Assembly (NCBI RefSeq): GCF_016783915.1
Contig: NZ_JADHVT010000005.1
Span: forward strand, 8,315 to 72,314
Direction: 5' to 3'
Source: Acidovorax sp.
GTDB taxonomy: Bacteria > Pseudomonadota > Gammaproteobacteria > Burkholderiales > Burkholderiaceae_C
Length of the DNA: 64,000 bases
The notes below the pieces were generated by a model. The model was not told the origin of the DNA and did no database searches. It saw only the letters and a list, made by a program, of their open reading frames with translations. The translations under genes were made by a program, and so were the position numbers. Shown piece after piece: positions 45,153 to 64,000 of the stretch (positions are counted from its first letter, which is position 1; each line of letters begins with the position of its first letter).

Positions 45153-45153
45153 C

Positions 45154-48428: not shown

Positions 48429-49616
48429 TTACAGCACCACCGGGATCTCGGTCGCAGGCGGCGTGTTGCGGCTACGCCCACAGCGCACCAGGCCGTCGAT
48501 CATCACCATGCCGATGCCAGGGATGTCGCCGAGCTGCACGCTCTCCAACAGCGTGGTGCCGGCGGTGTGCTGGGCACGGTCCATGAAGACGAAGTCGGCC
48601 GCGCGGCCGACCTCGATCAGGCCGCAGTTCAGGTTGCGGATGCGCGCCGTGTTGCCCGTGGCAAAGCAGAACACCAGCTCGGCAGGAATGTCGGCAAAGC
48701 TCGATATCAGCGCAATCATGCGCAGCATGCCCAGTGGCTGCACGCCCGAGCCGGCCGGGCCGTCGGTGCCCAGGATCACGCGGTGTGGGCACTTGAGTTC
48801 GATGGCCGCCCGCGCGGCCTGGATGGCAATCTTCTCGTTGCCGTTGTGCACCAGTTCGATGGCGCGGGACGACTTCTCGCACAGCTCGCACACATGCTTC
48901 CAGGGCAGCGAGGTGTGGCCGCCGTTGATGTGGCCGATCACGTCGGCATCGGCCTCCAGCACCACGTCCTTGTCGATCAGGCCCGATCCCGGGATGGACG
49001 GGCCGCCCGTGTGGATGGTGCTTTGGATGCCGTGCTTGCGCGCCCACGCCACCATTTGCTGGGCCTCGTAGCCCGCCTTGACGGAGCCCAGGCCCACTTC
49101 GCCCAGCAGCGTCACGCCGGCGTCGGCCAGGTCCTTGAAGTCCTGCTCGGTCATGCCTTTCTCGATGACCGGGGCACCTGCAATCACCTTCACGCCACCG
49201 GGGCGGAAGTTGTCGAACGAGCGCTGCGCGGTGATGGCCAGCGCCTTCAGGCCCACGATGTCCTTGGGGCGGCCGGGCAGGTGCACTTCACCGGCCGAGA
49301 CCATGGTGGTCACGCCGCCGTTCATGGTCGAGTCGATCCAGCCGATCTGGTTCTGGCGCGGCGTCCAGTCGCCGAACACAGGGTGCACGTGGCTGTCGAT
49401 CAGGCCTGGCGCCACGCAGGTCTGGCGTGCGTCGATCACGGTGTTGGCGTGGTCCGTGTCGCACTCCTTGTAGCGGCCCACGGCCACGATGAGGCCGTCG
49501 TTCACCACGATGGTGTCGGCGTCGAGGATGGGGCGGTCCAGGTCGCCCGACAACAAAAGACCGATGTTCTGGATGACGACCTTGCCCGACTTGCCGCCTG
49601 CTGCTGCTTCTGCCAT
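48429..49616 (-). CDS. ena: Enamidase (amidohydrolase of nicotinate catabolism)
   Basis: Collinear with Eubacterium barkeri enamidase as recalled (I-x-NIG..SGD, PGL-x-D-x-HVH, PGRPKD, GEVGLG, HTGG-x-SIPGS, HINGG, SRNTPPA); nicotinate gene context. Confidence 0.85.
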   Translation of the reverse strand: MAEAAAGGKSGKVVIQNIGLLLSGDLDRPILDADTIVVNDGLIVAVGRYKECDTDHANTVIDARQTCVAPGLIDSHVHPVFGDWTPRQNQIGWIDSTMNGGVTTMVSAGEVHLPGRPKDIVGLKALAITAQRSFDNFRPGGVKVIAGAPVIEKGMTEQDFKDLADAGVTLLGEVGLGSVKAGYEAQQMVAWARKHGIQSTIHTGGPSIPGSGLIDKDVVLEADADVIGHINGGHTSLPWKHVCELCEKSSRAIELVHNGNEKIAIQAARAAIELKCPHRVILGTDGPAGSGVQPLGMLRMIALISSFADIPAELVFCFATGNTARIRNLNCGLIEVGRAADFVFMDRAQHTAGTTLLESVQLGDIPGIGMVMIDGLVRCGRSRNTPPATEIPVVL

Positions 49617-49707
49617 GGATTCTCCTCGTGGGGTGTGACACAGGTCCCATCGGACCTCGCTAAGAAAAATCGTTATGTCTGTGGGGCTCGTGTGTGGCGA
49701 AGGGCCA

Positions 49708-50424
49708 TCAGACGGTCGCCTTGCCCTTGGGCAGGCTGGGGCCGGGCGCCACGGTGCGCAGCACGCTGTCGATGACGAAGGACTCCCAGTGCGCCAGCGC
49801 ATCGGGCGTCTCCAGGTCTTCGCCCAGAAAGGCCGACAGCGTGTGCCGGTTGGACATGTAGAAGTAGCCCGTGGCGGCAATCAGCAGGTACACATCGCGC
49901 GCTGAAACGTCCTTGCGGAACAGGCCCTGCGCCTGGCCGCTTTCGAGTACGCGGCGGATCACCTCAATGGCGGGCGACGAGTATTCACGGGCGCGCATCG
50001 ACTTGGAGATGTGTTTGCCCTTGTGCAGGTTCTCGGTGTTGAGCAGCGTGATGAACTCGGGGTTCTTGCGGTAGTAGCCCACCACAAAGCGGATCACGGC
50101 CTGCAACGCCTCCACCGGTTGGGTGGTGTCCAGGTCGAGCTTGGATTCCGCATCGTTCATGCGCCGGTAGGTTTCCTCCAGCACCTCGATGAACAGGCCT
50201 TCCTTGCTGCCGAAGTAGTAATAGATCATCCGGTCGAAGGACTTGGCCGCCTTGGAGATCTTCTCCACGCTGCCGCCTTCGTAGCCGTAGCGGGCAAACA
50301 CCTTGGTCGCCGCCTTCAGGATGTTGTCGCGCGTGGTCTGTGCGGCCTGCTCGCGCACGCCCGTCTTGCGGGCCGATGTGGAACGGGTGGACGCGGTCCG
50401 GGTCTTGGTGGGAGTGGCAGACAT
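49708..50424 (-). CDS. TetR-family regulator (probable nicotinate-cluster regulator)
   Basis: HTH SVEKISKAAKSFDRMIYYYFGSKEGL; C-terminal LLNTENLH. Confidence 0.88.
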   Translation of the reverse strand: MSATPTKTRTASTRSTSARKTGVREQAAQTTRDNILKAATKVFARYGYEGGSVEKISKAAKSFDRMIYYYFGSKEGLFIEVLEETYRRMNDAESKLDLDTTQPVEALQAVIRFVVGYYRKNPEFITLLNTENLHKGKHISKSMRAREYSSPAIEVIRRVLESGQAQGLFRKDVSARDVYLLIAATGYFYMSNRHTLSAFLGEDLETPDALAHWESFVIDSVLRTVAPGPSLPKGKATV

Positions 50425-50474
50425 GGCGGGTCCTGGTGGATGACGCTGGCCCTGCAGAGCGGGCCAGCCGGGGA

Positions 50475-51251
50475 TCACTGCTCTGCGAACGCGCGTTCGA
50501 TCACGAAGTCGCCGGGCTTCGTGGTGTTGCCTTCCTTGAAGCCACGCTCTTCCATCATGTGCTTGAGGTCGCGCAGCATTTCGGGGCTGCCGCAGATCAT
50601 CACGCGGTCTTCGGCGGGGTTGAGCGCGGGCAGGCCCAGGTCGCGCGCCATCTGGCCGTTTTCGATCACGGTGGTCACACGGCCCTGGTGCTTGAAGGGC
50701 TCGCGCGTCACGGTGGGGTAGTACTTGAGCTGCTTGGTGACCATCTCGCCCAGGAACTCGTGCTGCGGCAGCTCCTGCGTGATGTAGTCGTGGTAGGCCA
50801 GCTCCTTCACCTCGCGCACGCCGTGCACCAGGATGACTTCCTCGAACTTCTCGTAGGTCTCTGGGTCGCGGATCAGGCTCAGGAACGGGGCCACGCCCGT
50901 GCCGGTGGAGAGCATGTACAGGCGCTTGGCGGGCAGCAGGTAGTCGATCAGCAGGGTGCCTGTGGGCTTCTTGCCGACCACGATGGTGTCGCCCACCTTG
51001 ATGTGCTGCAGGCGCGAGGTCAGCGGGCCGTCGGGCACCTTGATGGAGAGGAACTCCAGATGCTCTTCGTAGTTGGGGCTCACGATGCTGTAGGCGCGCA
51101 GCAGCGGTTTGCCGTTTTCGCCGCGCAGGCCAATCATCGTGAAATGACCGTTGGAGAAGCGCAGCGCGGTGTCGCGCGTGGTGGTGAAGGAGAAAAGGCG
51201 GTCCGTCCAGTGGTGGACCGTCAGTACGCGTTCGTCAAGAAAGGCGCTCAT
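50475..51251 (-). CDS. fpr: Ferredoxin--NADP(+) reductase, bacterial type
   Basis: RAYSIVS, GPLTSRLQ, TGTGVAPF, MICGSP and IERAF. Confidence 0.95.
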   Translation of the reverse strand: MSAFLDERVLTVHHWTDRLFSFTTTRDTALRFSNGHFTMIGLRGENGKPLLRAYSIVSPNYEEHLEFLSIKVPDGPLTSRLQHIKVGDTIVVGKKPTGTLLIDYLLPAKRLYMLSTGTGVAPFLSLIRDPETYEKFEEVILVHGVREVKELAYHDYITQELPQHEFLGEMVTKQLKYYPTVTREPFKHQGRVTTVIENGQMARDLGLPALNPAEDRVMICGSPEMLRDLKHMMEERGFKEGNTTKPGDFVIERAFAEQ

Positions 51252-51317
51252 GGTGCGTTAGATGGAAAAGTTGGAAGCAAATAAGGAATTTGGCTGAAGA
51301 GCAGGGCCACATGCGCT

Positions 51318-51918
51318 CTACAGCGCAATGTTCAGGCCTGAAAGCTTGTGGCTCACAACCCTCCATTGTTCCGCATCTGGCAAAGCCGCTTTTCTTTTGG
51401 TGATTGTTGGGGAGCGGGGGCGCCAGCTTTTTGTTGAACTGCAGAAAGACTTCCATCCCTTCGGGCAGGTCGTCTTCTGCATAGATGGCGTTGGCCGGGC
51501 ACTCCGGAATACACACCGCGCAGTCGATGCATTCGTCCGGGTCAATGACCAGGGATGGAACCTGCTCAAGGTCTTTTCGGGGTCGCGCAAGTCCCTTCTC
51601 GGGGTGGAATGCAAGGCGCGGTGTGCAGCCAATAGCCCGTGCTATTGGCAAGCGACGCAACGCTGCAGACCGCCCGAAAAGGCACTTGCCCGAAGGGTTG
51701 GAATGAAATCGGGTGATTGGACGCCCCGGCCGCTTGCATGGGCATGAGCCCATGCGGCGCATCCGAAGCATCCACTCATCCCGATTGCATTCCAACGCGA
51801 TCCCCGAAAAGACCTTGAGCAGGTTCCCAGGCCCCTCCTTGAAGCAATCAACAGGGCACACATCGACGCAGTCGGTGTACTTGCACCGAATGCATGCGTC
51901 CGTCACAACGTGCGTCAT
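51318..51918 (-). pseudogene. fdxA: 7Fe ferredoxin (FdxA/FdI type) disrupted by a MITE and a +1 frameshift
   Basis: MTHVVTDACIRCKYTDCVDVCPVDCFKEGP | 91-codon insert | SLVIDPDECIDCAVCIPECPANAIY. The native tail PTITKRKAALPDAEQW..IAL* is in another frame after the G5 run at 51416-51420. AGGAG RBS present. Confidence 0.9.
51557..51827. mobile_element. 271-bp non-autonomous MITE with ~31-bp terminal inverted repeats
   Basis: Ends are GGAACCTGCTCAAGGTCTTTTCGGGG(A)TCGCG and its reverse complement. No transposase ORF. It interrupts a conserved gene. Confidence 0.9.
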
Positions 51919-51984
51919 TTTGGGGCTCCTTGTGCACCATTTTTGGGGGTTCGAAAACACCATTGCAGAGTCTGGTTGATTCCG

Positions 51985-52005
51985 CTACATTGACATCAAA
52001 TGTAG
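51985..52005. promoter_or_regulatory. Palindromic operator candidate between divergent fdxA and hnr
   Basis: CTACATT-GACATCA-AATGTAG, overlapping a TTGACA hexamer. Confidence 0.55.
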
Positions 52006-52093
52006 TGTTCACAACATTTAAGTTAAGTGAATGCTACACAAAATGCAATGCGCGTACAAGCACCTGCAACAATGCAATGAATGGGTTGCCACG

Positions 52094-53725
52094 ATGACTG
52101 AACACACCAAGACCGATGGGCTGCCGGGCATGGACGCGCCAGATCTGCCGCAGGTGCTCGAGCGCGCCCGGCCCCGTAACGAGCGCATGAACGCCGCCAA
52201 GGTAGAGTGCAACGCGTGCCCGGTGCTGTGCCAGATTTCCGAAGGCCGGGCAGGCGCGTGTGACCGTTACGCCAACCATGCCGGCGTGCTCGTGCGGCTG
52301 GATCCGGTGGTGCTGCTGCGCAAAACCCTGGAGGCAGGCGAGGCCACGCTGGTGCCGTTTGTGAGCCGCGCAGGGACTAGCGATGGGCAAGAGGGTGCCG
52401 ACGCAGAGTCTGCGGTCGCGCCGCAGCCCTGGTCTGGCGACTTGCTGTTGAGTGAAGAGGTTTTTGTCACGGGTGTGGGCTCGTCCACCACCTACCCCGA
52501 CTACAAGCCTGCGCCGTTCATCGTAGGCTCCCAAACCGATGGCGTGGACATGGTCACGGTGGTCACCGAAGGCATCTTCAGCTACTGCAGCTTCAAGGTG
52601 AAGATCGATACCGACCGTTTCCTCGGATCCGAGCAGGCCAATGTGCGCTGCAAGGGCGAGGTGGTGGGCCATGTGACCACGGCGGAATACGGCTCGCAGA
52701 TGCTGTCACTCGGTGGCGTGCACCACCTCACGGGTGGTACCAAGAAGGAGGGCCGCATCACCGCCGAGATGATGCAGGCGCTGGGCAACAAGCAGGCCGT
52801 GGAGTTCACCATCGACGGTGGCTCGCAACTGGTGATCCAGGCGGGGCGGGCGCCCATCGTCAACGGTGTGGCCGAACAGCGCATGCGTGTTGGCTGCGGT
52901 TCTGCGGCCATTGGTATCTTTGCGCGCCAGTTCTTCGGCCATGCCGACGAGGTGGTGGTGGTGGACGACCACATCACGGGCGTGCTTACCGAGCATCAGG
53001 CGGGCCGTTGCCTGGACATGAAGCCTTCGGGCATTCGGATGCGTGGACGCAAATCCACGCCAGGCCGTTACTTTCAGGTGGCCAATCCGGGCACAGGCTG
53101 GGGCGGCACCGACATTGCCGATCCGCTGTCCATCATCGAAGGCTGGGACGAATCCGTTGCCTGGCCGGGGCTGCGCCTCTTGATGACCTCCACCACGGGG
53201 GAGCACGCATCCTGGTACGTGCTGGACGAACAACTGAATCCGGTGGAAGCCGAGATGCCTGCCGAGGTGCGCCGTATCGTGGACCGCATTGGCGAAAACT
53301 GCGAGCCCTCGCTGGCCTCCGTGCTGTTCCTTGGTGGAGCCGGCGGCAGTCTGCGCGCAGGGGTTACCGAGAACCCGGTGCTGCTCACCCGCTCCATCAA
53401 GAATGCGCTGGTCAATGTGACTTGCGGCGGCGCACCGGCCTATGTGTGGCCGGGCGGCGGTATCACCGTGATGGTAGACGTGCTGCGCATGCCGGACAAC
53501 AGTTTTGGCACCGTGCCTACGCCCGCCATCGTGGCACCCATCGAGTTCAGCATGCGCCGAGCGGACTACGAGGCACTGGGTGGACACACCGAACAGATCC
53601 GCAGCCTGCGTGAGGTGCTGGAGCGTGGTGCGTGGCACAACGATGGTGCACCGCAGGCGCGCGTCTGGCAGACCTTGCCTGCCGCCAATCCGTGGCCGTT
53701 GGGCCGCCCACCTCTGCTGGGCTGA
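52094..53725 (+). CDS. hnr: 6-hydroxynicotinate reductase (Fe-S flavoprotein)
   Basis: N-terminal CNACPVLC..GACDRY Fe-S motif, TYPDYKPAPFI, TEGIFSYC, MRVGCGSA, GWGGT and GGAGGSLRAGV; clustered with enamidase and a molybdo-hydroxylase. Confidence 0.85.
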   Translation: MTEHTKTDGLPGMDAPDLPQVLERARPRNERMNAAKVECNACPVLCQISEGRAGACDRYANHAGVLVRLDPVVLLRKTLEAGEATLVPFVSRAGTSDGQEGADAESAVAPQPWSGDLLLSEEVFVTGVGSSTTYPDYKPAPFIVGSQTDGVDMVTVVTEGIFSYCSFKVKIDTDRFLGSEQANVRCKGEVVGHVTTAEYGSQMLSLGGVHHLTGGTKKEGRITAEMMQALGNKQAVEFTIDGGSQLVIQAGRAPIVNGVAEQRMRVGCGSAAIGIFARQFFGHADEVVVVDDHITGVLTEHQAGRCLDMKPSGIRMRGRKSTPGRYFQVANPGTGWGGTDIADPLSIIEGWDESVAWPGLRLLMTSTTGEHASWYVLDEQLNPVEAEMPAEVRRIVDRIGENCEPSLASVLFLGGAGGSLRAGVTENPVLLTRSIKNALVNVTCGGAPAYVWPGGGITVMVDVLRMPDNSFGTVPTPAIVAPIEFSMRRADYEALGGHTEQIRSLREVLERGAWHNDGAPQARVWQTLPAANPWPLGRPPLLG

Positions 53726-53737
53726 GTGGGTCGCTCT

Positions 53738-54658
53738 GTGAACGCCTGCCGCAAGCTCTTGTCCGATGGCCGCTGGCATTTCCAGCATGGGCCGATGGAC
53801 CTCATCCTCCAGGCCGAAGGGGAGCGCAATGCCGTAGTGCAGGCGCATGAATGCGCATGGCAACGCTTTGACCGGCTGTTGCAGGAACTGGTGAGTGAAC
53901 TCCCGGGTTTGCGGGCGCCGGTGGGCGAACGCTGTGGTGTGCAGGGCGTGGTGGCGCGTCGCATGTGGGCTGCTTGCAGTCCTTACCGCACGGGCTTCAT
54001 TACATCAATGGCGGCAGTGGCAGGCTCGGTGGCGCAGGAGATTCTGGCGTGCTATGACCAGCCTGGCATTGACCGCGCCTGGGTCAACAACGGGGGCGAC
54101 ATTGCGTTGCACCTGGCGCATGGCCAGTCGGTCACGGTGGGGGTGTACGCTGACATCGCTGCACTGAACGCCGCACAGTTGCGCAACGGCCTGGTGCTGG
54201 ATGGGCAGATCCGCATCGACAGCGCCATGCCGGTGCGTGGTGTGGCCACCAGTGGGTGGCGCGGGCGCAGCCAGTCGCTGGGTATTGCGGACAGTGTCAC
54301 GGTGCTGGCGCGCACGGCGGCGCAGGCCGATGCGGCGGCGACCATTGTGGCCAATGCGGTCAATGTGCAGGACGCGCGCATTGGTCGCATGCCGGCGTGG
54401 CAAGTGCGGGACGACAGTGACCTGGGTGCCATTCCCGTCACTGTGGACGTTCCTGCCTTGCCCGAGGAGCAGGTTCGCAGGGCCTTGCATCAGGGGTTGC
54501 AAAAAGCGCAAGAATTGCAGTCCGGCGGCCTGCTGTGGTTTGCACTGCTGGCGTGCCAGGGGCAGTTTGTGGCGACCGCAGCACCACAAGCCCTGGCGGG
54601 TGCCGTTTGGCTCCCACACGCAGTGATGGAATCGGAAGTTGGTTCGGTATTTGCTTAA
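53738..54658 (+). CDS. UPF0280 family protein (ApbE-like superfamily)
   Basis: HGPMDL, MAAVAGSVA, VNNGGDIA, GVATSGW-x-GRS-x-SLGIADSVTV and ADAAAT. Confidence 0.85.
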   Translation: MNACRKLLSDGRWHFQHGPMDLILQAEGERNAVVQAHECAWQRFDRLLQELVSELPGLRAPVGERCGVQGVVARRMWAACSPYRTGFITSMAAVAGSVAQEILACYDQPGIDRAWVNNGGDIALHLAHGQSVTVGVYADIAALNAAQLRNGLVLDGQIRIDSAMPVRGVATSGWRGRSQSLGIADSVTVLARTAAQADAAATIVANAVNVQDARIGRMPAWQVRDDSDLGAIPVTVDVPALPEEQVRRALHQGLQKAQELQSGGLLWFALLACQGQFVATAAPQALAGAVWLPHAVMESEVGSVFA

Positions 54659-54679
54659 CGAATTGCACAGGTTTACAGA

Positions 54680-55321
54680 ATGATCCAGATACGACGCGTT
54701 TTCACCCATCTTGAGGAAATCCGGCACGAATTCGGGCCGGTGGCCGATGTGCCGTTGCTGCGTGGTGCCATCGGCGCGGTGCTGACCAACCCATTTGCGG
54801 GCCGGTACGAGCCCGACATCCTGCCCATGATGGATGCCCTGCAGGACGTGGGGCTGGACATGGCGCAGCGCCTGCTGAAGGCCATGGCCGTGCCCGCCGA
54901 GCGCATCGAGACCTATGGCAAAGGCGCCATCGTGGGCGCGGCCGGCGAGCTGGAACACGGCGCGCTGTGGCATGTGCCCGGCGGCTACGCCATGCGCGAA
55001 CTGCTGGGCTGGAAGGGCGACCGCAACGCCTACGCCAAGGGCCAGGCCGAAGAGAAGACCGGGCAACCCGCGAATGCGCTGTCTATCGTGCCCTCCACCA
55101 AGAAGGTGGGTGGCCCCGGTGCGGCGCTGGACGTGCCGCTGACCCACATCAACGCCAGCTATGTGCGTAGCCATTTCGACGCGATCGAAGTGCGTGTTCC
55201 GGGCGCGCCCTCCGCTGATGAGATCGTGTTCATACTTGCCATGACCACGGGCCCGCGCATCCACGCCCGTGTCGGAGGACTCAAGGCGGCAGACATCAGC
55301 CAGTGGAACGGCTTGCGCTGA
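54680..55321 (+). CDS. DUF1185 ('amino acid synthesis') family protein, paralogue 1
   Basis: NPFAGRY, YGKGAIVG..GELEHG and VPLTHINASYVRSHFD. Confidence 0.8.
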   Translation: MIQIRRVFTHLEEIRHEFGPVADVPLLRGAIGAVLTNPFAGRYEPDILPMMDALQDVGLDMAQRLLKAMAVPAERIETYGKGAIVGAAGELEHGALWHVPGGYAMRELLGWKGDRNAYAKGQAEEKTGQPANALSIVPSTKKVGGPGAALDVPLTHINASYVRSHFDAIEVRVPGAPSADEIVFILAMTTGPRIHARVGGLKAADISQWNGLR

Positions 55322-55376
55322 GCCGCGCGCCGACCCGCACACCATCGAACAAGACAAGATCCCAAGGAGTCAAAAA

Positions 55377-55961: not shown

Positions 55962-56042
55962 GCCCGGCGCGCGTACAACATACACCTGTCCTGTCTCACC
56001 CCCCGTTCGATCTCTCTCCAACCATCCTTCAGGAGTCTCCCC

Positions 56043-57254: not shown

Positions 57255-57362
57255 TTCCCTCTGAGGTCTGAGGCGCCTGCCGCGCCTCGGTCCCGGCAGA
57301 CGCTACCGGCAGCCTGGCACAGGCAAATTCTGCGGGTGCTGGCTGGTGTCGGCTGGGGCAAG

Positions 57363-57416
57363 GCCGGCTTCTTTCATGGCCTTCGCGCTGGCAAAAATAG
57401 TGTGAACAGGCCCTAC
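57363..57416. repeat. Solitary terminal segment of an IS5-like MITE
   Basis: ...CTGGCAAAAATAGTGTGAACAGGCCCTA. The reverse complement GGGCCTGTTCACA resembles the fdxA MITE end GGAACCTGCTCAA. No partner end was found. Confidence 0.45.
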
Positions 57417-57430
57417 AGGGTTTATTGAAC

Positions 57431-59338
57431 ATGAGTTTTTCGGGTTTCATCGTTCAGCTCATCAACGGGCTGGCGAGCGCGTCGTCGCTGTTCCTCGTGG
57501 CGGCGGGTCTGTCGCTGATCTTTGGCGTGACCCGCATCGTGAACTTTGCCCATGGCTCATTCTTCATGGTGGGCATCTACGTCGCGTACTCGCTGGTCGA
57601 GCGCCTGAGCGGTGCCCTGGGCTTCTGGGTGGCCTTGCCGCTGGCCGCGCTGATCGTTGGCGTGCTGGGGGCGCTGATCGAGGTGGTGCTGCTGCGCCGC
57701 ATCTACAAGGCGCCCGAGCTGTTCCAGCTGCTGGCCACGTTTGCACTGGTGCTGGTCATCAAGGACGCCGTGCTGTGGCTCTGGGGCCCCGACGAACTGC
57801 TGGGCCCGCGCGCGCCGGGCCTTTCGGGTTCCGTGAGCCTGCTCGGGCGGCAGTTTCCCAGCTACGACCTGTTCCTCATCGTGGTCGGTCCGCTGGTGCT
57901 GGGCGCGGTCTGGCTGCTCCTCACGCGCACCCGGTTCGGCACGCTGGTGCGTGCCGCCACGCAAGACCGCGAGATGGTGAGCGCCCTGGGCGTCAACCAG
58001 GCCTGGTTGTTCACGGCCGTGTTTGCGCTGGGCGCAATGCTGGCCGGGCTGGGTGGCGCACTGCAACTGCCGCGCGAGCCCGCGACGCTGGAGATGGACC
58101 TGCACACCATCGGTGCCGCCTTCGTGGTGGTGGTGGTGGGTGGCATGGGCTCCATCCCGGGCGCGTACGCCGCCGCCCTGCTGATCTCCGAGATCAAGGC
58201 CATCTGCATCTGGCTGGGTGTGGTCGACGTGTTCGGCATGAGCATTTCCTTCTCCAAGCTGACCCTGGTGGTGGATTTTCTGGTGATGGCTGTGGTGCTT
58301 GTCTGGCGCCCATGGGGGCTGTTTGGCCGACCACAGGCACCCAGCCGCTATGTGGGCATGCAGGAGGAGCCATTGCGTCGGCCGGGCAAGGCCTATCTGG
58401 TAGCGGCCGCCGTGCTGGGCCTGCTGCTGGTGGCAGCACCGCTGCTGACCGCGCAGTCGCCGTACACCACGGTGTTGCTGATTGACCTGCTGATCGCAGC
58501 GCTGTTTGCGGCCAGCCTTCACTTCATCATGGGGCCTGCGGGCATGCATTCGTTCGGCCATGCCGCCTACTTCGGGTTGGGCGCCTATGGCGCGGCCCTG
58601 CTGGTGCGCTCGCTCGGGCTACCGATGGAGATCGCACTGGTGGTGGCGCCGCTGGTGGCGGCGGCCGGGGCGTTTGTTTACGGGTGGTTTGCAGTGCGGC
58701 TGTCGGGTGTGTATCTCGCCATGCTGACGCTGGCCTTCGCCCAGATCACCTGGGCCATCACTTACCAGTGGGACAGTTTCACGGGTGGCAGCAACGGCCT
58801 GACCGGTGTCTGGCCTGCGGCCTGGCTGGCAGACAAGCGCATGTATTACTGGCTCACGCTGGCACTGGTGGGGGCAGGGGTGTGGTGGCTGCGCCGCGTG
58901 CTGTTCTCGCCGTTTGGCTATGCGCTGCGCGCGGGGCGCGACTCTGTGCTTCGGGCCGACGCCATCGGCATCGACGTCAAGCGCATGCAGTGGGCGGCGT
59001 TTGTGGTGGCGGGCACGGCTGCAGGGCTGGCAGGGGCGCTGTATGCGTTCTCCAAGGGCAGCATTTCGCCGGAGTCGCTGGCCGTGGGCAAATCGGTGGA
59101 CGGGTTGGTGATGGTGCTGCTCGGCGGCATCCAGACGCTGGCGGGCCCCGTGGTGGGCGCGGTCACCTTCACCTGGCTGCACGACACCGTGGCGCGCAAC
59201 ACCGACTACTGGCGCGCCATGCTGGGCGCCATCATCCTCATCCTGGTGCTGCTTTTTCCGCAGGGCATCGCTGGCACCATCAAACAGATTTTTGACAACA
59301 TGCGCGACGCCAAGAACACCAAGGAGGGCGCAGCATGA
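57431..59338 (+). CDS. Fused LivH-LivM ABC permease
   Basis: GLSLIFG..NFAHG (LivH half), SFGHAAYFGLGAY and GGSNG (LivM half). Confidence 0.9.
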   Translation: MSFSGFIVQLINGLASASSLFLVAAGLSLIFGVTRIVNFAHGSFFMVGIYVAYSLVERLSGALGFWVALPLAALIVGVLGALIEVVLLRRIYKAPELFQLLATFALVLVIKDAVLWLWGPDELLGPRAPGLSGSVSLLGRQFPSYDLFLIVVGPLVLGAVWLLLTRTRFGTLVRAATQDREMVSALGVNQAWLFTAVFALGAMLAGLGGALQLPREPATLEMDLHTIGAAFVVVVVGGMGSIPGAYAAALLISEIKAICIWLGVVDVFGMSISFSKLTLVVDFLVMAVVLVWRPWGLFGRPQAPSRYVGMQEEPLRRPGKAYLVAAAVLGLLLVAAPLLTAQSPYTTVLLIDLLIAALFAASLHFIMGPAGMHSFGHAAYFGLGAYGAALLVRSLGLPMEIALVVAPLVAAAGAFVYGWFAVRLSGVYLAMLTLAFAQITWAITYQWDSFTGGSNGLTGVWPAAWLADKRMYYWLTLALVGAGVWWLRRVLFSPFGYALRAGRDSVLRADAIGIDVKRMQWAAFVVAGTAAGLAGALYAFSKGSISPESLAVGKSVDGLVMVLLGGIQTLAGPVVGAVTFTWLHDTVARNTDYWRAMLGAIILILVLLFPQGIAGTIKQIFDNMRDAKNTKEGAA

Positions 59339-60120
59339 GCCTCCTCAAAGTCACCGGTCTGGGCAAATCGTTTGGCGGCGTCAAGGCGGTGGATGGCATC
59401 CACTTCGAACTGGCGGCTGGCGAGCTGCTGGCACTCATCGGCCCCAACGGCGCGGGCAAGTCCACCACGTTCAACATGGTCAACGGCCAGCTGCCTGCCG
59501 ATGCAGGCTCCATCCAGCTCAACGGCCAGGAGCTGGTGGGCCGCAAGCCCCGCGACATCTGGCGCATGGGGGTGGGCCGCACCTTTCAGATCGCCGAAAC
59601 CTTTGCATCGCTGACGGTGGTGGAGAACGTGCAGATGGCACTGATCTCCAACGACGGTCTGCTGTTCTCCCTATGGCGCAGGGCTGCCGACCACAAACGC
59701 GAAGAAGCCCTGGCGTTGCTCGACCAGGTGGGCATGAAGTCGCAGGCCGACCGGCCCTGTAGCGTGCTCGCTTATGGCGATGTGAAGCGCGTGGAGCTGG
59801 CGATTGCCATGGCCAATTCTCCCAAGCTGCTGCTCATGGACGAACCCACCGCCGGCATGGCGCCCAAGGAACGCAACGAACTCATGGCGCTGACCAAGCA
59901 GCTGGTGATCGACCGCAACATGGCCGTGCTCTTCACCGAGCACAGCATGGACGTGGTGTTTGCCTATGCCGACCGCATGATCGTGCTGGCGCGCGGGCGG
60001 CTGATTGCCGAGGGCAAGCCGCTGGAGCTGCGCGACCACCCCAAGGTGCAGGAGGTCTACTTCGGCACTGGCAAGACCTTCGAGAAGAAAACGGCAGCCG
60101 CTGCTGCTGAGGCCGCATGA
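59335..60120 (+). CDS. ABC ATP-binding protein (LivG-like)
   Basis: GPNGAGKST, LAYGD-x-KR-x-E and LLMDEP. Confidence 0.93.
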   Translation: MSLLKVTGLGKSFGGVKAVDGIHFELAAGELLALIGPNGAGKSTTFNMVNGQLPADAGSIQLNGQELVGRKPRDIWRMGVGRTFQIAETFASLTVVENVQMALISNDGLLFSLWRRAADHKREEALALLDQVGMKSQADRPCSVLAYGDVKRVELAIAMANSPKLLLMDEPTAGMAPKERNELMALTKQLVIDRNMAVLFTEHSMDVVFAYADRMIVLARGRLIAEGKPLELRDHPKVQEVYFGTGKTFEKKTAAAAAEAA

Positions 60121-60869
60121 GCATGACGACGACCAACGAACCCAAAGAACTGCTGCTGCAGGCCAAAGGGCTGCAGGCCTGGTATGGCGCGGCACAAATC
60201 CTGTATGACGTGGACTTGGACGTTCGCCGTGGCGAAGTCGTGGCCCTGATGGGCCGCAACGGCGCAGGCAAATCCACCACGCTGAAGACGCTGATGGGCA
60301 TGCTGGCCAAACGCAAGGGCAGCATCCAGTTCATGGGCCGCGACATCTCCAAAACCGACCCGCACGACGCCGCGCGCCTGGGCCTGGGCTTTGTGCCCGA
60401 AGACCGCCGCGTGTTCACCGACCTCACGGTGATGGAGAACCTGGAGGTGGGCCGTCAGCCCGCCCGCACCTGGCCCGACGGCACCGCTGCGCCTGTGTGG
60501 ACGCCCGAGCGCCTGTTCAAGCTCTTCCCCAACCTGGGCGAGATGCCCCAGCGCCCTGGCGGTCGCATGAGCGGTGGCGAGCAGCAGATGCTCACCGTGG
60601 CCCGCACGCTCATGGGCAACCCCTATCTGGTGCTGCTGGATGAGCCCTCCGAAGGCGTGGCCCCGGTGATCGTGGAGCAGATGGCGCACATGATCCTGGA
60701 GCTGAAGGAGCAGGGCGTGAGCATCCTGCTGTCCGAGCAGAACATGCACTTTGCCGAGCTGGTGTCCGACCGCGCCTATGTGCTCGAAAAGGGCCAGATC
60801 CGCTACCAGGCCAGCATGGAAGAGCTGGCCGCCAACGAAGAGGTGCGGCGCGCTTACCTGAGCGTCTGA
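60117..60869 (+). CDS. ABC ATP-binding protein (LivF-like)
   Basis: GRNGAGKST, MSGGEQQM and LLDEPSEG. Confidence 0.93.
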   Translation: MSMTTTNEPKELLLQAKGLQAWYGAAQILYDVDLDVRRGEVVALMGRNGAGKSTTLKTLMGMLAKRKGSIQFMGRDISKTDPHDAARLGLGFVPEDRRVFTDLTVMENLEVGRQPARTWPDGTAAPVWTPERLFKLFPNLGEMPQRPGGRMSGGEQQMLTVARTLMGNPYLVLLDEPSEGVAPVIVEQMAHMILELKEQGVSILLSEQNMHFAELVSDRAYVLEKGQIRYQASMEELAANEEVRRAYLSV

Positions 60870-60999
60870 ACCCACTGCCGACGCGCGCGTGTGGTGTGTG
60901 GCCCACGTGTGCCGTTGGTTACAAAAAACACCTCTACAAGCACTTGCACGATGTTTGCCCTCGCACGGAAACTTTGGCCTTTGATGTAAGGAGCGCTAC

Positions 61000-62172: not shown

Positions 62173-62193
62173 CTGAGAACAACCCACCGAGAC

Positions 62194-62700
62194 ATGCACG
62201 CGCCCGCTTCACTCTCCCTGGTCGTCGTCAATGGCCAGCCGTTTGCCCTGCCGCAGAGCACCTTGGCCAGCGCCACGCTGCTGCACGTGCTGCGTAACGA
62301 CCTGTCGCTCAACGGGCCCAAGTACGGCTGTGGCCTGGGGCAGTGTGGTGCCTGCACGGTGCTGGTGGATGGCATTGCCGCGCGGGCTTGCGTGATCCCG
62401 GCGCAGGGCGTGGCAGGCCGCGAGGTGACCACGCTGGAAGGGCTGCCCGGGCGCTGCAGCTGCACCGCAGGACTTCACCCGGTGCAGCAGGCCTTTGTGG
62501 ATGAGCAGGCCGCGCAGTGCGGCTATTGCCTGAGCGGCATGGTGATGATGGCCGTGGCCTTGCTGGAGCGCAATCCTGACCCCGACGAAGCCGCCGTGCG
62601 CCGCGAGCTGTCGGGCAACCTGTGCCGCTGCGGCACGCATGTCGAAATCATCCGCGCCGTGCTGCGTGCGGCGGTGCTGATGCGCGAGGCCCAGGCATGA
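62194..62700 (+). CDS. Nicotinate dehydrogenase small 2x[2Fe-2S] subunit (NicA-like)
   Basis: KYGCGLGQCGACTV, QCGYC and NLCRCG. Confidence 0.88.
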   Translation: MHAPASLSLVVVNGQPFALPQSTLASATLLHVLRNDLSLNGPKYGCGLGQCGACTVLVDGIAARACVIPAQGVAGREVTTLEGLPGRCSCTAGLHPVQQAFVDEQAAQCGYCLSGMVMMAVALLERNPDPDEAAVRRELSGNLCRCGTHVEIIRAVLRAAVLMREAQA

Positions 62701-64000
62701 GCGCCACACCTGACAACGCCGCACCCCTGCGCGCCCACAGCCCGCTCACCCGCGCCGACTTCCATGCCGCCCAGGGCGTGCTGCTGGTGGTGCGCAACCC
62801 GCCCCCCGCACCACCGCCCGTCAAGGGCCAGCCCGCGCTCGTGGCGGGCAACCCCGCCGAGGGCGTGGAGATACTGATCGCCGTGTGGGACGACGGCAGC
62901 GTGACTGCGCTGAGCGGCCATGTGGACCTGGGCACCGGCATCCGCACCGCACTCGCGCAGATCGTGGCCGAAGAGCTGGATGTGCCCTTGGCCCAAGTGA
63001 ACATGGTGCTGGGCGACACCACACGCGCGCCCAACCAGGGCGCCACCATTGCGAGCGCGTCCATCCAGATCCACGCAAAACCCTTGCGCACCGCTGCCGC
63101 GCAGGCGCGCCACTGGCTGGTGGCGCAGGCCGCAGAGCGGCTGGGCGTGCCAGTGGATCAGTTGCAGGTGCGTGCGGGGGTGGTGCAGGTCATTGCAGAC
63201 CCGTCGCGGCAAGTGGCTTACAGCGCGCTGCTGGCAGGCGCGCACACCACGCTGGAGCTGGTGGACGCCACGCCCACCAAGGCCGCCGCCGATTACACCG
63301 TGGTCGGCCAGTCCGTGCCGCGCGTGGACATCCCCGCCAAGGTCAGTGGCGAGCTGGTCTTTGTGCACGACATGCGCGTGCCCGGCATGCTGCACGGCCG
63401 CGTGGTGCGCCCGCCGTATGCGGGGGCGGACCATGGCGACTTCATCGGCAACACGCTCGAATCGGTGGACCAGCAGTCCATCGCCCACATCCCCGGCATC
63501 CGCGCCGTGGTGGTGATCCGCGACTTTGTGGGCATCGTCGCCGAGCGCGAGGAGCAGGCCGAGCAGGCCCTGCGCGATTTGAAAGTGCGCTGGAAGGACT
63601 GGCCCGGCTTCCCGCGCCAGGACAGTACCGAGGCGCTGGAACAAGCCATCCGTGCCAACCCCGCCACGCAGCGCCGCCTGGTGGACGAGGGCGATGTGGA
63701 GGGCGCCCTGGCCGCGCTGTCTGCTGACGGCCAGCCCATGCCGCGCACCTATGTGTGGCCGTACCAGATGCATGGCTCCATCGGCCCATCGTGCGCGGTG
63801 GCCGAATGGCGCAGTGATGACAGCACGGGCCGCCCGCGCATGACGGTGTGGGCAGGCACGCAAAACCCCCATGTGCTGCGCGCCGACCTGGCCCGCCTCA
63901 TGGGCCTGGCCGATGTGGACATCGACCTCATCCGCATGGAGGCCGCAGGCTGCTATGGCCGCAACGGTGCCGACGATGTAGCGGCCGATGCCGCGCTGCT
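62697..64000 (+). CDS. Nicotinate dehydrogenase molybdopterin subunit (NicB-like), truncated by window end
   Basis: ATGA overlap with nicA. Reads MSATPDNAA..GHVDLGTGIRTALAQIVAEELDV..PNQGATIAS..RVDIPAKVSG..PYQMHGSIGPSCAVA..AGCYGRNG. Absent from the ORF track because it has no stop in the window. Confidence 0.85.
   Translation, partial: MSATPDNAAPLRAHSPLTRADFHAAQGVLLVVRNPPPAPPPVKGQPALVAGNPAEGVEILIAVWDDGSVTALSGHVDLGTGIRTALAQIVAEELDVPLAQVNMVLGDTTRAPNQGATIASASIQIHAKPLRTAAAQARHWLVAQAAERLGVPVDQLQVRAGVVQVIADPSRQVAYSALLAGAHTTLELVDATPTKAAADYTVVGQSVPRVDIPAKVSGELVFVHDMRVPGMLHGRVVRPPYAGADHGDFIGNTLESVDQQSIAHIPGIRAVVVIRDFVGIVAEREEQAEQALRDLKVRWKDWPGFPRQDSTEALEQAIRANPATQRRLVDEGDVEGALAALSADGQPMPRTYVWPYQMHGSIGPSCAVAEWRSDDSTGRPRMTVWAGTQNPHVLRADLARLMGLADVDIDLIRMEAAGCYGRNGADDVAADAAL

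What the first reader, a model, noticed from the sequence alone, without database searches (positions are those of the whole stretch)
48429..64000. Hybrid nicotinate-degradation island: aerobic-type NicAB feeding the reductive Hnr/enamidase route, with several unassigned genes
Seen in sequence: ena, tetR, fpr and fdxA on the minus strand, divergent from hnr, UPF0280, DUF1185 x2, a liv-type ABC importer, a second SBP and nicA/nicB. Established: in Eubacterium barkeri, 6-hydroxynicotinate is reduced by ferredoxin-dependent Hnr and ring-opened by enamidase to 2-formylglutarate. In Pseudomonas putida, NicAB makes 6-hydroxynicotinate, which is then handled oxidatively by NicC/NicX. Here there is no nicC/nicX, and none of the E. 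barkeri downstream enzymes (hydroxymethylglutarate dehydrogenase/dehydratase, methyleneglutarate mutase) lies in the window. Inference: an aerobic or microaerobic route whose steps after 2-formylglutarate are encoded by uncharacterised genes in the cluster or beyond the window end. Similar proteobacterial clusters have been noted bioinformatically, but the accessory genes are, to my knowledge, unassigned.
Basis: partly seen in the sequence, partly recalled or inferred. Interest (0 to 1): 0.75.

Follow-up and report, generated by a model that had tools for sequence, protein, structure and literature searches.

The report
Known-type nicotinate breakdown gene cluster
This is a well-conserved Acidovorax gene cluster for breaking down nicotinate (vitamin B3) by the reductive route already described in Azorhizobium. 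It is ordinary as a pathway, but three helper genes still lack a proven role, and in this strain a small mobile element has landed inside the cluster's ferredoxin gene.

Summary
Ena matches E. barkeri enamidase (PDB 2VUN) at E 6.6e-109. Hnr is 39% identical over 471 residues to the hnr ORF of the E. barkeri nicotinate locus. NicB is 1251 aa, with molybdopterin domains plus three c-type haem motifs. No nicC or nicX follows it; the only nearby flavin monooxygenase is PobA.

The "hybrid" route is the aerobic Azorhizobium caulinodans pathway: nicotinate, 6-hydroxynicotinate, tetrahydro-6-oxonicotinate (THON), 2-formylglutarate, glutarate. Its proteobacterial cluster was described in 2006 and 2012. 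I found it syntenic in 80 of 80 Comamonadaceae loci, and NCBI already names the reductase.

The unassigned genes (UPF0280 and DUF1185) also sit beside hnr and ena in E. barkeri and most other anaerobes I sampled. They therefore belong to the shared Hnr/Ena module and do not encode aerobe-specific later steps. UPF0280 has an ApbE flavin-transferase fold, so it probably attaches flavin to Hnr.

Proteobacterial Hnr lacks the N-terminal ferredoxin domain of the anaerobe enzyme, and the aerobic clusters carry fpr (with or without fdxA) instead.

In this strain fdxA is interrupted by a 270-bp palindromic mobile element and also carries a frameshift.

Verdict: new member of a known kind, modest interest.

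The parts
48429..49616 (-). ena: enamidase (THON ring-opening amidohydrolase), 395 aa
   Evidence: E 6.6e-109, full-length match to E. barkeri enamidase PDB 2VUN. 47% identity to the E. barkeri locus. Pfam Amidohydro_1. The identical protein occurs on 23 contigs.
49708..50424 (-). TetR-family regulator (TetR_N + TetR_C_29), 238 aa
   Evidence: Pfam hit. Present at this position in 74 of 80 Comamonadaceae loci.
50475..51251 (-). fpr: ferredoxin-NADP+ reductase-type flavoprotein, 258 aa
   Evidence: FAD_binding_6 + NAD_binding_1. NCBIfam Fpr model E 6e-46, below its cut-off. Present in 73 of 80 Comamonadaceae loci. Also in the Neorhizobium and Sulfitobacter clusters at 51-52% identity.
51318..51918 (-). 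fdxA: 7Fe-type ferredoxin gene, interrupted by an insertion and frameshifted
   Evidence: NCBIfam FdxA_Protbact matches in two separate stretches. Three-frame translation shows the C-terminus in another frame. Intact in five sister species.
51557..51827 (.). 270-bp palindromic MITE-like element inserted in frame in fdxA
   Evidence: 26-bp perfect terminal inverted repeats. RNA fold -196 kcal/mol, z -15.4. Absent from L001-L004 and L011; present in L085-L087. Other copies at 83-93% identity in other Acidovorax genomes. Extra contig depth and loose ends inside the element in four runs.
51407..51407 (-). 1-bp insertion that frameshifts the fdxA C-terminal (DUF3470) part
   Evidence: An extra A in the window, L085 and L086. 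It is absent in L087, in sister species and in runs X12/X13/X20.
51999..52018 (.). 20-bp palindrome AATGTAGTGTTCACAACATT in the divergent promoter region; candidate TetR operator
   Evidence: Unique in the window, with 0 expected by chance. Conserved from Acidovorax to Polaromonas, together with flanking GCTACA/TGTAG repeats. The operator role is an inference.
52094..53725 (+). hnr: 6-hydroxynicotinate reductase homologue, 543 aa, without the N-terminal 2x[4Fe-4S] domain
   Evidence: 39% identity over 471 aa to the E. barkeri hnr ORF. Conserved CX2CX3CX9C and G-[AS]-[GS]-T-x-Y-P motifs. NCBI names relatives '6-hydroxynicotinate reductase'. No Pfam, NCBIfam or PDB relative.
53738..54658 (+). 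UPF0280 / ApbE-superfamily protein (PF27030), 306 aa; proposed Hnr flavin transferase
   Evidence: NCBIfam PRK04334.1-2, 386 bits. PF27030 and the JGI name 'ApbE superfamily'. AF2 model pLDDT 77; after DVU1097 it hits only ApbE/Ftp/FmnB structures. Lies immediately after hnr in E. barkeri as well.
54680..55321 (+). DUF1185a (PF06684 AA_synth), 213 aa; paralogue seen only in the alpha/beta-proteobacterial clusters sampled
   Evidence: Pfam E 1.9e-67. Matches PDB 3BYQ and 2QTP. Orthologues at 53-59% identity in Neorhizobium and Sulfitobacter. No a-type copy in the Firmicute loci.
55377..55961 (+). DUF1185b (PF06684), 194 aa; the copy shared with anaerobes
   Evidence: Pfam E 3e-72. 52% identity to the ORF directly after ena in E. 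barkeri. E 6.7e-89 (about 75% identity) to PDB 2QTP (SPO0826).
56043..60869 (+). liv-type ABC importer: SBP 56043-57254, fused permease 57431-59338, ATPases 59335-60120 and 60123-60869
   Evidence: Pfam Peripla_BP_6, BPD_transp_2 and ABC_tran. Syntenic in 67-76 of 80 loci. Called 'putative nicotinate ABC transporter' in PMC3511419.
61000..62172 (+). second Peripla_BP_6 substrate-binding protein, 390 aa
   Evidence: Pfam hit. Found in only 19 of 80 loci, all in the Acidovorax clade.
62194..62700 (+). nicA-type 2x[2Fe-2S] small subunit, 168 aa
   Evidence: Pfam Fer2_2. 42% identity to the E. barkeri ndhS region. 59% identity to the gene annotated nicA in Neorhizobium.
62697..64000 (+). nicB-type large subunit; first 434 of 1251 residues are in the window
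   Evidence: The full protein comes from L081 (99.975% identical DNA). It has MoCoBD_1/2 domains, a TM-like segment at 815-834 and three CxxCH motifs at 868, 1014 and 1152. 51% identity to the annotated NicB of Neorhizobium.

Best explanation
This is a chromosomal catabolic cluster of an Acidovorax species (Comamonadaceae) for using nicotinate by the Azorhizobium-type reductive (THON) route.

Proposed steps:
1. A liv-type ABC importer takes up nicotinate or 6-hydroxynicotinate.
2. NicAB hydroxylates nicotinate to 6-hydroxynicotinate and passes the electrons to the respiratory chain. NicA is a 2x[2Fe-2S] subunit. NicB combines molybdopterin domains, one membrane-spanning segment and three c-type haem domains.
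3. Hnr, an Fe-S flavoprotein, reduces the ring to 1,4,5,6-tetrahydro-6-oxonicotinate (THON).
4. Enamidase opens the ring, giving 2-formylglutarate and ammonium.
5. The remaining carbon goes, by unlinked genes, through glutarate semialdehyde, glutarate and glutaryl-CoA to acetyl-CoA.

Inferred roles of the accessory genes:
- Fpr, with FdxA where it is present, supplies low-potential electrons from NAD(P)H to Hnr. These replace the 2x[4Fe-4S] ferredoxin domain that is fused to Hnr in anaerobes.
- UPF0280, a cytoplasmic ApbE-fold protein, attaches the covalent flavin to Hnr.
- The DUF1185 pair acts on the labile ring-opening product (the enamine, enol or aldehyde form of 2-formylglutarate). The b copy is shared with anaerobes. 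The a copy was seen only in the alpha/beta-proteobacterial clusters sampled and is a candidate for diverting the product to glutarate semialdehyde.
- The TetR protein represses the divergent operons at a conserved 20-bp palindrome.

In this strain fdxA has been inactivated by a MITE and a frameshift, so Hnr must take electrons from Fpr directly or through another ferredoxin. The many related clusters that lack fdxA presumably do the same.

Shown here: the gene identities, their homology to the characterised enzymes, the synteny, the domain difference in Hnr, and the disruption of fdxA. Inferred: the substrate, the electron path, the flavinylation, the DUF1185 role and the operator.
For: - Ena is full-length homologous to crystallised E. 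barkeri enamidase, E 6.6e-109.
- Hnr is 39% identical over 471 aa to the hnr ORF of the E. barkeri nicotinate locus, with shared Cys and Gly-rich motifs.
- The NicA/NicB architecture (2x[2Fe-2S] subunit; MoCo domains, TM segment, 3 CxxCH) matches.
- The cluster order is conserved in 80 of 80 Comamonadaceae loci. More than 551 tblastn-confirmed stretches were found among the GTDB species genomes.
- PMC3511419 reports the homologous cluster in A. caulinodans ORS571, Bradyrhizobium, Rhodopseudomonas and strain SG-6C, which degrades 6-hydroxynicotinate, and proposes (from a 42%-identical Hnr homologue and this cluster) that it goes via THON and glutarate as in A. caulinodans. PMC9304392 describes the same pathway.
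- No NicC: the only nearby FAD monooxygenase is PobA, TIGR02360 at 689 bits against a cut-off of 539.
- fpr is conserved in beta- and alpha-proteobacterial clusters. The ferredoxin domain is present on Firmicute/Delta Hnr and absent from alpha/beta Hnr.
- UPF0280 has an ApbE-like fold and lies directly after hnr in all lineages sampled.
- From my memory of the Alhapel 2006 abstract, E. barkeri Hnr carries a covalently bound flavin.
- PMC7913881, citing Perchat 2018, reports that the DUF1185 homologue TgnF stimulates a semialdehyde-dehydrogenase step in trigonelline degradation.
- The Sulfitobacter plasmid places an acyl-CoA ligase, an acyl-CoA dehydrogenase, an enoyl-CoA hydratase and a 3-hydroxyacyl-CoA dehydrogenase next to ena.
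- The palindrome at 51999-52018 is unique in the window and conserved in relatives.
Against: - No growth, induction or metabolite data exist for this organism. The 'RNA' runs that hold the locus show flat contig depth and cannot demonstrate expression.
- NicAB substrate specificity rests on context and on annotation of homologues. No curated NicA/NicB model matched.
- Genes for glutarate semialdehyde, glutarate or glutaryl-CoA are absent from the whole 64-kb window.
- fdxA is broken here, so the cluster could be partly disabled in this strain.
- The flavinylation idea is untested. The conserved Hnr motif G-[AS]-[GS]-T is not the canonical ApbE target motif (as I recall it), TM-scores to ApbE structures are only 0.4-0.54, and catalytic residues were not examined.
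- The Hnr structure prediction failed (pLDDT 37).
- The DUF1185 role is an analogy only.
Confidence: 0.8

Rival explanations
1. The cluster degrades a different N-heterocyclic carboxylate, for example another pyridine or pyrimidine derivative. On this reading the Mo-hydroxylase, the reductase and the amidohydrolase act on an analogue rather than on nicotinate.
For: No curated NicA/NicB model matched; the best NCBIfam hits are generic xanthine-dehydrogenase-family subunits. The TetR regulator resembles RutR (pyrimidine utilisation) only weakly. The hydroxylase module is interchangeable between lineages. A Rieske oxygenase sits in the Sulfitobacter cluster.
Against: Ena and Hnr are full-length homologues (47% and 39%) of the two enzymes from the E. 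barkeri nicotinate locus. Strain SG-6C, which carries the same cluster, degrades 6-hydroxynicotinate, and the same cluster is present in A. caulinodans, the organism in which the THON route was established.
Confidence: 0.08
2. In this particular strain the pathway is decaying or non-functional, because the cluster's own ferredoxin has been knocked out by a mobile element and then frameshifted.
For: There is a 270-bp insertion in fdxA plus a 1-bp frameshift in the window and in two independent assemblies. A relative carries the insertion without the frameshift, which suggests stepwise decay.
Against: Every other gene is full length and matches its relatives' lengths. At least 30 related clusters (Variovorax, Limnohabitans and others) have no fdxA between fpr and hnr, so the ferredoxin appears dispensable or replaceable. 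The insertion is in frame and free of stop codons.
Confidence: 0.15
3. One reading: UPF0280 and the DUF1185 genes encode the missing aerobic steps after 2-formylglutarate (decarboxylation and oxidation to glutarate).
For: They are unassigned and sit in the operon. The DUF1185 homologue TgnF stimulates a semialdehyde-dehydrogenase reaction. The a-type DUF1185 paralogue occurs only in the alpha/beta-proteobacterial clusters sampled.
Against: UPF0280 and b-type DUF1185 lie beside hnr/ena in E. barkeri and in 15 of the 21 Firmicute/Delta loci that carry an ena homologue, although the E. barkeri downstream chemistry differs from the aerobic route. UPF0280 has a flavin-transferase fold, not an aldehyde-dehydrogenase or decarboxylase fold. 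No aldehyde dehydrogenase is present in the cluster.
Confidence: 0.15

Closest known systems
Azorhizobium caulinodans ORS571 aerobic nicotinate pathway and its cluster AZC_2790-2804 (Kitts 1989/1992; cluster drawn in PMC3511419, Fig. 4)
   Same: It follows the same route: nicotinate, 6-hydroxynicotinate, THON, hydrolytic ring opening, glutarate. The cluster content is also the same: hydroxylase, hnr, ena, an ABC transporter and conserved proteins of unknown function.
   Different: I could not fetch the Azorhizobium locus itself. The regulator here is TetR, whereas the alpha-proteobacterial clusters I did fetch (Neorhizobium, Sulfitobacter) carry MarR. This cluster also has an extra SBP and an fdxA gene, which is broken here.
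Eubacterium barkeri nicotinate fermentation cluster (Alhapel 2006; locus L088)
   Same: hnr (39%), UPF0280 (32-35%), ena (47%), DUF1185 (52%) and 2Fe-2S/Mo hydroxylase subunits are all present.
   Different: E. barkeri Hnr carries an N-terminal 2x[4Fe-4S] domain. Its hydroxylase includes an FAD subunit and a split Mo subunit. Its B12-dependent downstream genes have no counterpart here. It has no fpr, fdxA or ABC importer, and only one DUF1185 gene.
Pseudomonas putida KT2440 nic cluster (Jimenez 2008)
   Same: It shares the NicAB-type two-component hydroxylase with cytochrome c domains.
   Different: There is no NicC, NicX, NicD, NicF or NicE here. 6-hydroxynicotinate is reduced rather than oxidatively decarboxylated, and the only nearby flavin monooxygenase is PobA.
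ApbE/Ftp/FmnB flavin transferases (e.g. PDB 5MGY, 4XGV, 7ESA)
   Same: The UPF0280 model shares their fold: Foldseek probability about 1.0 and TM 0.4-0.54. Pfam PF27030 and JGI file the family in the ApbE superfamily.
   Different: Sequence identity is about 10-14%. The N-terminus has no obvious signal-peptide features (judged by eye), so the protein would act in the cytoplasm. The activity and the target residue are unknown.
In-frame palindromic repeat insertions in coding genes, such as Rickettsia palindromic elements (recalled from Ogata 2000, not checked here)
   Same: It is a short, highly palindromic, non-autonomous, multicopy repeat inserted in frame in a protein-coding gene without introducing stop codons.
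   Different: The family and host differ. Here a secondary frameshift suggests that the host gene is being lost rather than tolerating the insert.

Membership tests
Reductive (THON) nicotinate catabolic cluster, Azorhizobium/E. barkeri type | 6-hydroxynicotinate reductase (Hnr) orthologue | tested here: met
   39% identity over 471 aa to the E. barkeri hnr ORF. Conserved CX2CX3CX9C, MR[VI]GCGSA and GGxGGS motifs.
Reductive (THON) nicotinate catabolic cluster, Azorhizobium/E. barkeri type | Enamidase orthologue | tested here: met
   E 6.6e-109 to PDB 2VUN; residues 11-391 align with 2-382.
Reductive (THON) nicotinate catabolic cluster, Azorhizobium/E. barkeri type | Molybdenum hydroxylase for nicotinate encoded in the same cluster | tested here: inconclusive
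   The architecture is present, with 51% identity to the annotated NicB. Substrate specificity cannot be read from sequence, and no curated model matched.
Reductive (THON) nicotinate catabolic cluster, Azorhizobium/E. barkeri type | Growth on or induction by nicotinate; THON and 2-formylglutarate as intermediates | not testable with these tools
   Only metagenome contigs hold the locus, and their depth is uninformative.
Reductive (THON) nicotinate catabolic cluster, Azorhizobium/E. barkeri type | Glutarate/glutaryl-CoA branch genes | tested here: not met
   None in the 64-kb window or in the 6 kb beyond it. They are present next to ena in Sulfitobacter. They are presumably unlinked here.
Pseudomonas putida-type oxidative nic pathway | NicAB hydroxylase with cytochrome c domains | tested here: met
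   NicA carries Fer2_2. NicB has MoCoBD domains plus 3 CxxCH motifs.
Pseudomonas putida-type oxidative nic pathway | NicC (6-hydroxynicotinate 3-monooxygenase) and NicX (2,5-dihydroxypyridine dioxygenase) in the cluster | tested here: not met
   Neither lies in 48.4-64 kb or in the next 6 kb. The only FAD_binding_3 protein is PobA, 689 bits to TIGR02360. The rest of the genome was not searched.
E. barkeri fermentative nicotinate pathway | Downstream genes of the E. barkeri locus (per Alhapel 2006: Hgd, Hmd, B12-dependent mutase, isomerase, dimethylmalate enzymes) | tested here: not met
   tblastn of all L088 ORFs of at least 120 aa against the window and L081. Only hnr, UPF0280, ndhS/L/M, ena and DUF1185 gave hits.
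E. barkeri fermentative nicotinate pathway | Hnr with a fused N-terminal 2x[4Fe-4S] ferredoxin domain | tested here: not met
   The domain is present in six Firmicute/Delta Hnr sequences. It is absent from the window, Variovorax, Polaromonas and Neorhizobium Hnr.
ApbE flavin-transferase superfamily (for UPF0280) | ApbE-like fold | tested here: met
   AF2 model pLDDT 76.7 and pTM 0.81. Foldseek hits 3-39 are all ApbE/Ftp/FmnB. Pfam PF27030.
ApbE flavin-transferase superfamily (for UPF0280) | Catalytic/Mg2+-binding residues and FMN-transferase activity | not tested
   No residue-level superposition was done. The activity needs biochemistry.
ApbE flavin-transferase superfamily (for UPF0280) | Target protein with a flavinylation motif ending in Thr/Ser | tested here: inconclusive
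   Hnr has an invariant Thr in G-[AS]-[GS]-T-x-Y-P across all lineages. This is not the canonical ApbE target motif (SGAT-type, as I recall it).
MITE (non-autonomous inverted-repeat element) for the fdxA insert | Terminal inverted repeats, small size, no transposase, multiple copies | tested here: met
   26-bp perfect TIRs. 270 bp. Copies in three other Acidovorax contigs. Excess depth and loose ends inside the element.
MITE (non-autonomous inverted-repeat element) for the fdxA insert | Target-site duplication | tested here: inconclusive
   The junctions compared with empty sites allow at most 1-2 ambiguous bases.

The most novel reading that the evidence does not exclude
Hnr, UPF0280, DUF1185 and Ena form a conserved four-gene core across Firmicutes, Delta-, Alpha- and Betaproteobacteria, and two of its proteins would have new biochemical roles. 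UPF0280 would be a cytoplasmic ApbE-type flavin transferase dedicated to Hnr, a first assigned function for the UPF0280 family as far as I found. The DUF1185 proteins would process the unstable ring-opening product, with the proteobacteria-specific a-paralogue steering 2-formylglutarate to glutarate semialdehyde. Aerobes would have replaced the fused ferredoxin domain of Hnr with a dedicated NAD(P)H-Fpr(-FdxA) electron supply.
Probability: 0.3. Interest if true: 0.55.

Novelty: new member of a known kind. Interest (0 to 1): 0.3.

Why it matters
The pathway itself is textbook-level knowledge, from Azorhizobium (1989-1992) and E. barkeri (2006). This locus adds only an Acidovorax member of a very widespread cluster.

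The useful outcome is narrower. Comparison with anaerobes shows that the two unassigned families, UPF0280 and DUF1185, travel with Hnr and Ena in every lineage sampled. That points experiments at Hnr maturation (covalent flavin attachment) and at the chemistry of the ring-opening product, and away from the aerobe-specific later steps.

It also suggests how an oxygen-respiring bacterium feeds a ferredoxin-dependent reductase: through a dedicated Fpr.

Nicotinate and 6-hydroxynicotinate turnover by root-associated bacteria has recently been linked to plant immunity (PMC13510662). Knowing which route a nicAB-carrying strain uses after 6-hydroxynicotinate could therefore matter for that field.

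Tried and rejected
1. AlphaFold2 of Hnr on a 20-sequence alignment (80-93% identity) gave pLDDT 36.8. The model is unusable, so no fold search was run. Hnr has no PDB relative at E <= 1 and no Pfam or NCBIfam hit.
2. I tested whether the element in fdxA is removed at the RNA level. Contigs from three metatranscriptome runs and one DNA run show no joints, and the depth is flat, so nothing can be said about expression. There is no Rfam match in 48-64 kb.
3. I asked whether the AMP-binding and SDR genes upstream (43274-45975) are the glutarate-activating enzymes. The window's AMP-binding protein is only 31% identical to the Sulfitobacter cluster's AMP-binding protein, its SDR had no match in that cluster, and the pair is found beside the cluster in only six of the 80 Comamonadaceae loci, all in the Acidovorax group. 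I rejected them as cluster members.
4. I asked whether the FAD monooxygenase downstream of nicB is NicC. It is PobA, with an AraC regulator beside it.
5. The sigma-70 promoter and terminator scan of 48.3-56.1 kb found nothing above chance.
6. Alhapel 2006, Kitts 1992 and Perchat 2018 could not be read in the library. What I say about them comes from papers that cite them or from memory, and is marked as such.
7. 'Island' in the sense of recent horizontal acquisition is rejected. G+C matches the surroundings and the flanks are syntenic in sister species.

Full report
**Observation**

The window has about 65% G+C throughout.

On the minus strand:
- ena, 48429-49616
- a TetR_N/TetR_C_29 regulator, 49708-50424
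- fpr, 50475-51251
- fdxA, 51318-51918

On the plus strand, transcribed divergently:
- hnr, 52094-53725
- a UPF0280 gene, 53738-54658
- two PF06684 (DUF1185, 'AA_synth') genes, 54680-55321 and 55377-55961
- a liv-type ABC importer, 56043-60869
- a second binding protein, 61000-62172
- nicA, 62194-62700
- nicB, from 62697 off the end of the window

Hnr homologues at 90-97% identity are all Acidovorax, so the window comes from an Acidovorax species.

**Identity of the key enzymes**

- Ena aligns end to end with crystallised E. barkeri enamidase (PDB 2VUN, E 6.6e-109).
- To test Hnr directly, I fetched the E. barkeri nicotinate locus using the 2VUN sequence (L088). The window Hnr is 39% identical over 471 residues to the ORF at L088 1830-3329. 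It shares a CX2CX3CX9C cluster motif, an invariant MR[VI]GCGSA cysteine and several Gly-rich motifs.
- NCBI already names the Comamonadaceae proteins '6-hydroxynicotinate reductase'. The family has no Pfam, NCBIfam or PDB relative.
- A metagenome contig 99.975% identical to the window (L081) supplies the rest of NicB. It is 1251 aa, with molybdopterin-binding domains, one hydrophobic segment at 815-834 and three CxxCH motifs. This is the NicAB-type architecture.

**What is not there**

- Beyond nicB lie a 236-aa hypothetical protein, an EVE-domain gene, a glyoxalase, an AraC regulator and a 390-aa flavin monooxygenase. That monooxygenase is PobA (TIGR02360, 689 bits against a cut-off of 539), not NicC.
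- None of the E. barkeri ORFs downstream of ena/DUF1185 matches the window.
- The other 48 kb of the window is housekeeping: PEPCK, threonine dehydratase, qNOR/NorR, RecQ, split MetH, GDH and so on. It holds no glutarate or glutaryl-CoA genes.

**Is it new?**

No. PMC3511419 (2012) describes this cluster in A. caulinodans ORS571, Bradyrhizobium, Rhodopseudomonas and strain SG-6C. [quoted passage not shown] It also states that A. caulinodans goes on from THON via glutarate (citing Alhapel 2006 and Kitts 1989/1992). PMC9304392 summarises the same pathway.

In my own survey the gene order ena-tetR-fpr-(fdxA)|hnr-UPF0280-DUF1185a-DUF1185b-ABC-(SBP2)-nicA-nicB recurs in 80 of 80 Comamonadaceae loci: Acidovorax, Curvibacter, Polaromonas, Variovorax, Limnohabitans and Rhodoferax. 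At least 551 tblastn-confirmed stretches were found among the GTDB species genomes. Versions of the cluster also occur on plasmids of Rhizobiaceae, Roseobacteraceae and a Comamonadaceae isolate. The left flank is syntenic in sister Acidovorax species, so this is a resident chromosomal cluster and not a recent island.

**The unassigned genes**

The comparison with anaerobes argues against that.

- In E. barkeri, a UPF0280 gene overlaps the end of hnr, and a DUF1185 gene directly follows ena.
- The same quartet (ena, hnr, UPF0280, DUF1185) is present in 15 of the 21 Firmicute/Delta loci that carry an ena homologue, and some of the rest are short contigs.
- The E. barkeri fermentation treats 2-formylglutarate differently from the aerobic route: per Alhapel 2006, as I recall it, by reduction and a B12-dependent rearrangement. 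Genes shared by anaerobe and aerobe clusters should therefore serve the shared segment.

For UPF0280:
- An AlphaFold2 model (pLDDT 76.7, pTM 0.81) matches DVU1097, a UPF0280 member. After that it matches only ApbE/Ftp/FmnB flavin transferases (probability about 1, TM 0.4-0.54).
- Pfam PF27030 and JGI also file the family under the ApbE superfamily.
- E. barkeri Hnr was reported to carry a covalently bound flavin (Alhapel 2006 abstract, from memory).
- The simplest reading is that UPF0280 is the Hnr-specific flavin transferase.
- An invariant Thr in the motif G-[AS]-[GS]-T-x-Y-P is a candidate attachment site. The motif is not the canonical one, and this remains an inference.

For DUF1185:
- Copy b is the one shared with anaerobes: 52% identity to E. 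barkeri, and about 75% to PDB 2QTP (SPO0826).
- Copy a occurs only in the alpha- and beta-proteobacterial clusters sampled.
- A homologue, TgnF, is reported to stimulate a succinate-semialdehyde dehydrogenase reaction in trigonelline degradation.
- I therefore propose that the pair handles the labile ring-opening product, with copy a a candidate for steering it to glutarate semialdehyde. My confidence in this is low.

**Electron supply**

All six Firmicute/Delta Hnr sequences carry an N-terminal 2x[4Fe-4S] ferredoxin domain. The window, Variovorax, Polaromonas and Neorhizobium proteins lack it.

The aerobic clusters instead encode an Fpr-type ferredoxin-NADP reductase. It is present in 73 of 80 Comamonadaceae loci and in the Neorhizobium and Sulfitobacter clusters. 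A 7Fe ferredoxin gene, fdxA, lies between fpr and hnr in at least 43 of 80 loci, mostly Acidovorax and Polaromonas. It is absent in Variovorax and Limnohabitans.

This fits a chain from NAD(P)H through Fpr, then ferredoxin where present, to Hnr. The chain is inferred, not shown.

**Modularity of the cluster**

- The hydroxylase module varies. It is NicAB-type with cytochrome c domains in Comamonadaceae and Neorhizobium. It is XDH-type with an FAD subunit in Sulfitobacter and E. barkeri.
- In Neorhizobium, ena is missing and hyuA/hyuB follow the DUF1185 pair.
- In Sulfitobacter, an acyl-CoA ligase, an acyl-CoA dehydrogenase, an enoyl-CoA hydratase and a 3-hydroxyacyl-CoA dehydrogenase lie next to ena. 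This matches the glutaryl-CoA branch of the Azorhizobium pathway. Those steps are unlinked in Acidovorax.

**Regulation**

The divergent intergenic region holds a 20-bp palindrome, AATGTAGTGTTCACAACATT (51999-52018). It is unique in the window and conserved from Acidovorax to Polaromonas along with flanking TGTAG/CTACA repeats. I take it as a candidate operator for the TetR protein.

**The broken ferredoxin**

- fdxA matches the FdxA model in two separated pieces.
- A 270-bp insertion with 26-bp perfect terminal inverted repeats lies between codons for ...CFKEGP and LVIDPDEC....
- The insertion is in frame and free of stop codons. It folds into an almost perfect long hairpin (-196 kcal/mol, z -15.4).
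- It is absent from five sister species and present in three other assemblies of this lineage.
- Copies at 83-93% identity occur in other Acidovorax genomes. Contigs of four runs break inside it, with excess depth and loose ends. It is therefore a multicopy MITE-like element.
- The window and two of those assemblies also carry an extra A at 51407 that shifts the C-terminal DUF3470 part out of frame. A fourth assembly and three further runs have the insertion without the frameshift.
- The likely order of events is insertion first, then decay.
- All other cluster genes are full length, and many related clusters lack fdxA. I therefore think the pathway still works, but this is untested.

**Verdict**

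The finding is real and the pathway assignment is sound (confidence 0.8). It is a new member of a known kind, not a new hybrid. The residual interest lies in the still-unassigned UPF0280 and DUF1185 proteins and in the Fpr-based electron supply, for which this analysis gives sharper and testable hypotheses.

Noticed in passing
window 51557-51827 (inside fdxA, 51318-51918, minus strand): A 270-bp, almost fully palindromic MITE-like element with 26-bp perfect inverted ends is inserted in frame in the ferredoxin gene. It is multicopy in Acidovorax genomes and absent from the same site in five sister species. It stays free of stop codons in the corresponding frame in the L114 and L116 copies I translated.
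   Followed up: partly
window 51407: A single extra A frameshifts the fdxA C-terminus in the window and in two public assemblies (L085, L086). It is absent from a TARA scaffold (L087) and from three metatranscriptome runs that carry the same insertion.
   Followed up: yes
window 51999-52018: A unique 20-bp palindrome, AATGTAGTGTTCACAACATT, lies in the hnr-fdxA intergenic region. It is conserved across Acidovorax and Polaromonas with flanking TGTAG/CTACA repeats and is a candidate TetR operator.
   Followed up: partly
window 21505-22569 and 37038-39869: Methionine synthase MetH is split into a homocysteine-binding-domain gene (354 aa) and a gene for the remaining domains (943 aa). The two lie about 15 kb apart on the same strand.
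   Followed up: no
window 25189-26565 and 28048-29289: Two long ORFs with high third-position G+C (458 and 413 aa) have no Pfam or NCBIfam match.
   Followed up: no
L112 (Neorhizobium plasmid CP030828.1), locus 12031-19491: In this variant cluster hnr-UPF0280-DUF1185a-DUF1185b is followed by hyuA/hyuB (hydantoinase/oxoprolinase family), and no ena homologue is detectable. An ATP-dependent lactam hydrolase may replace enamidase there.
   Followed up: partly
L117 (Sulfitobacter pontiacus plasmid NZ_CP084962.1), locus 1-14497: Here ena is flanked by acyl-CoA ligase, acyl-CoA dehydrogenase, enoyl-CoA hydratase and 3-hydroxyacyl-CoA dehydrogenase genes. The hydroxylase is an XDH type with an FAD subunit instead of NicAB, and a Rieske oxygenase alpha subunit also sits in the cluster.
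   Followed up: partly
window 55377-55961: DUF1185b is about 75% identical to SPO0826 (PDB 2QTP). That structural-genomics protein of unknown function is therefore probably the Ruegeria pomeroyi orthologue from the same kind of cluster.
   Followed up: partly
window 51240-52000 (runs X1-X20): Near-identical sequence turns up in aquifer, lake, marine (TARA), fermentation and gut metatranscriptome runs, with flat depth over long contigs. This strain may be a widespread water-system organism or a reagent-associated Acidovorax.
   Followed up: no
L081 14427-15137 (just past the window end): A 236-aa ORF with no Pfam match and a signal-peptide/lipobox-like N-terminus (judged by eye) directly follows nicB in three independent contigs. 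It is unclear whether it belongs to the cluster.
   Followed up: no
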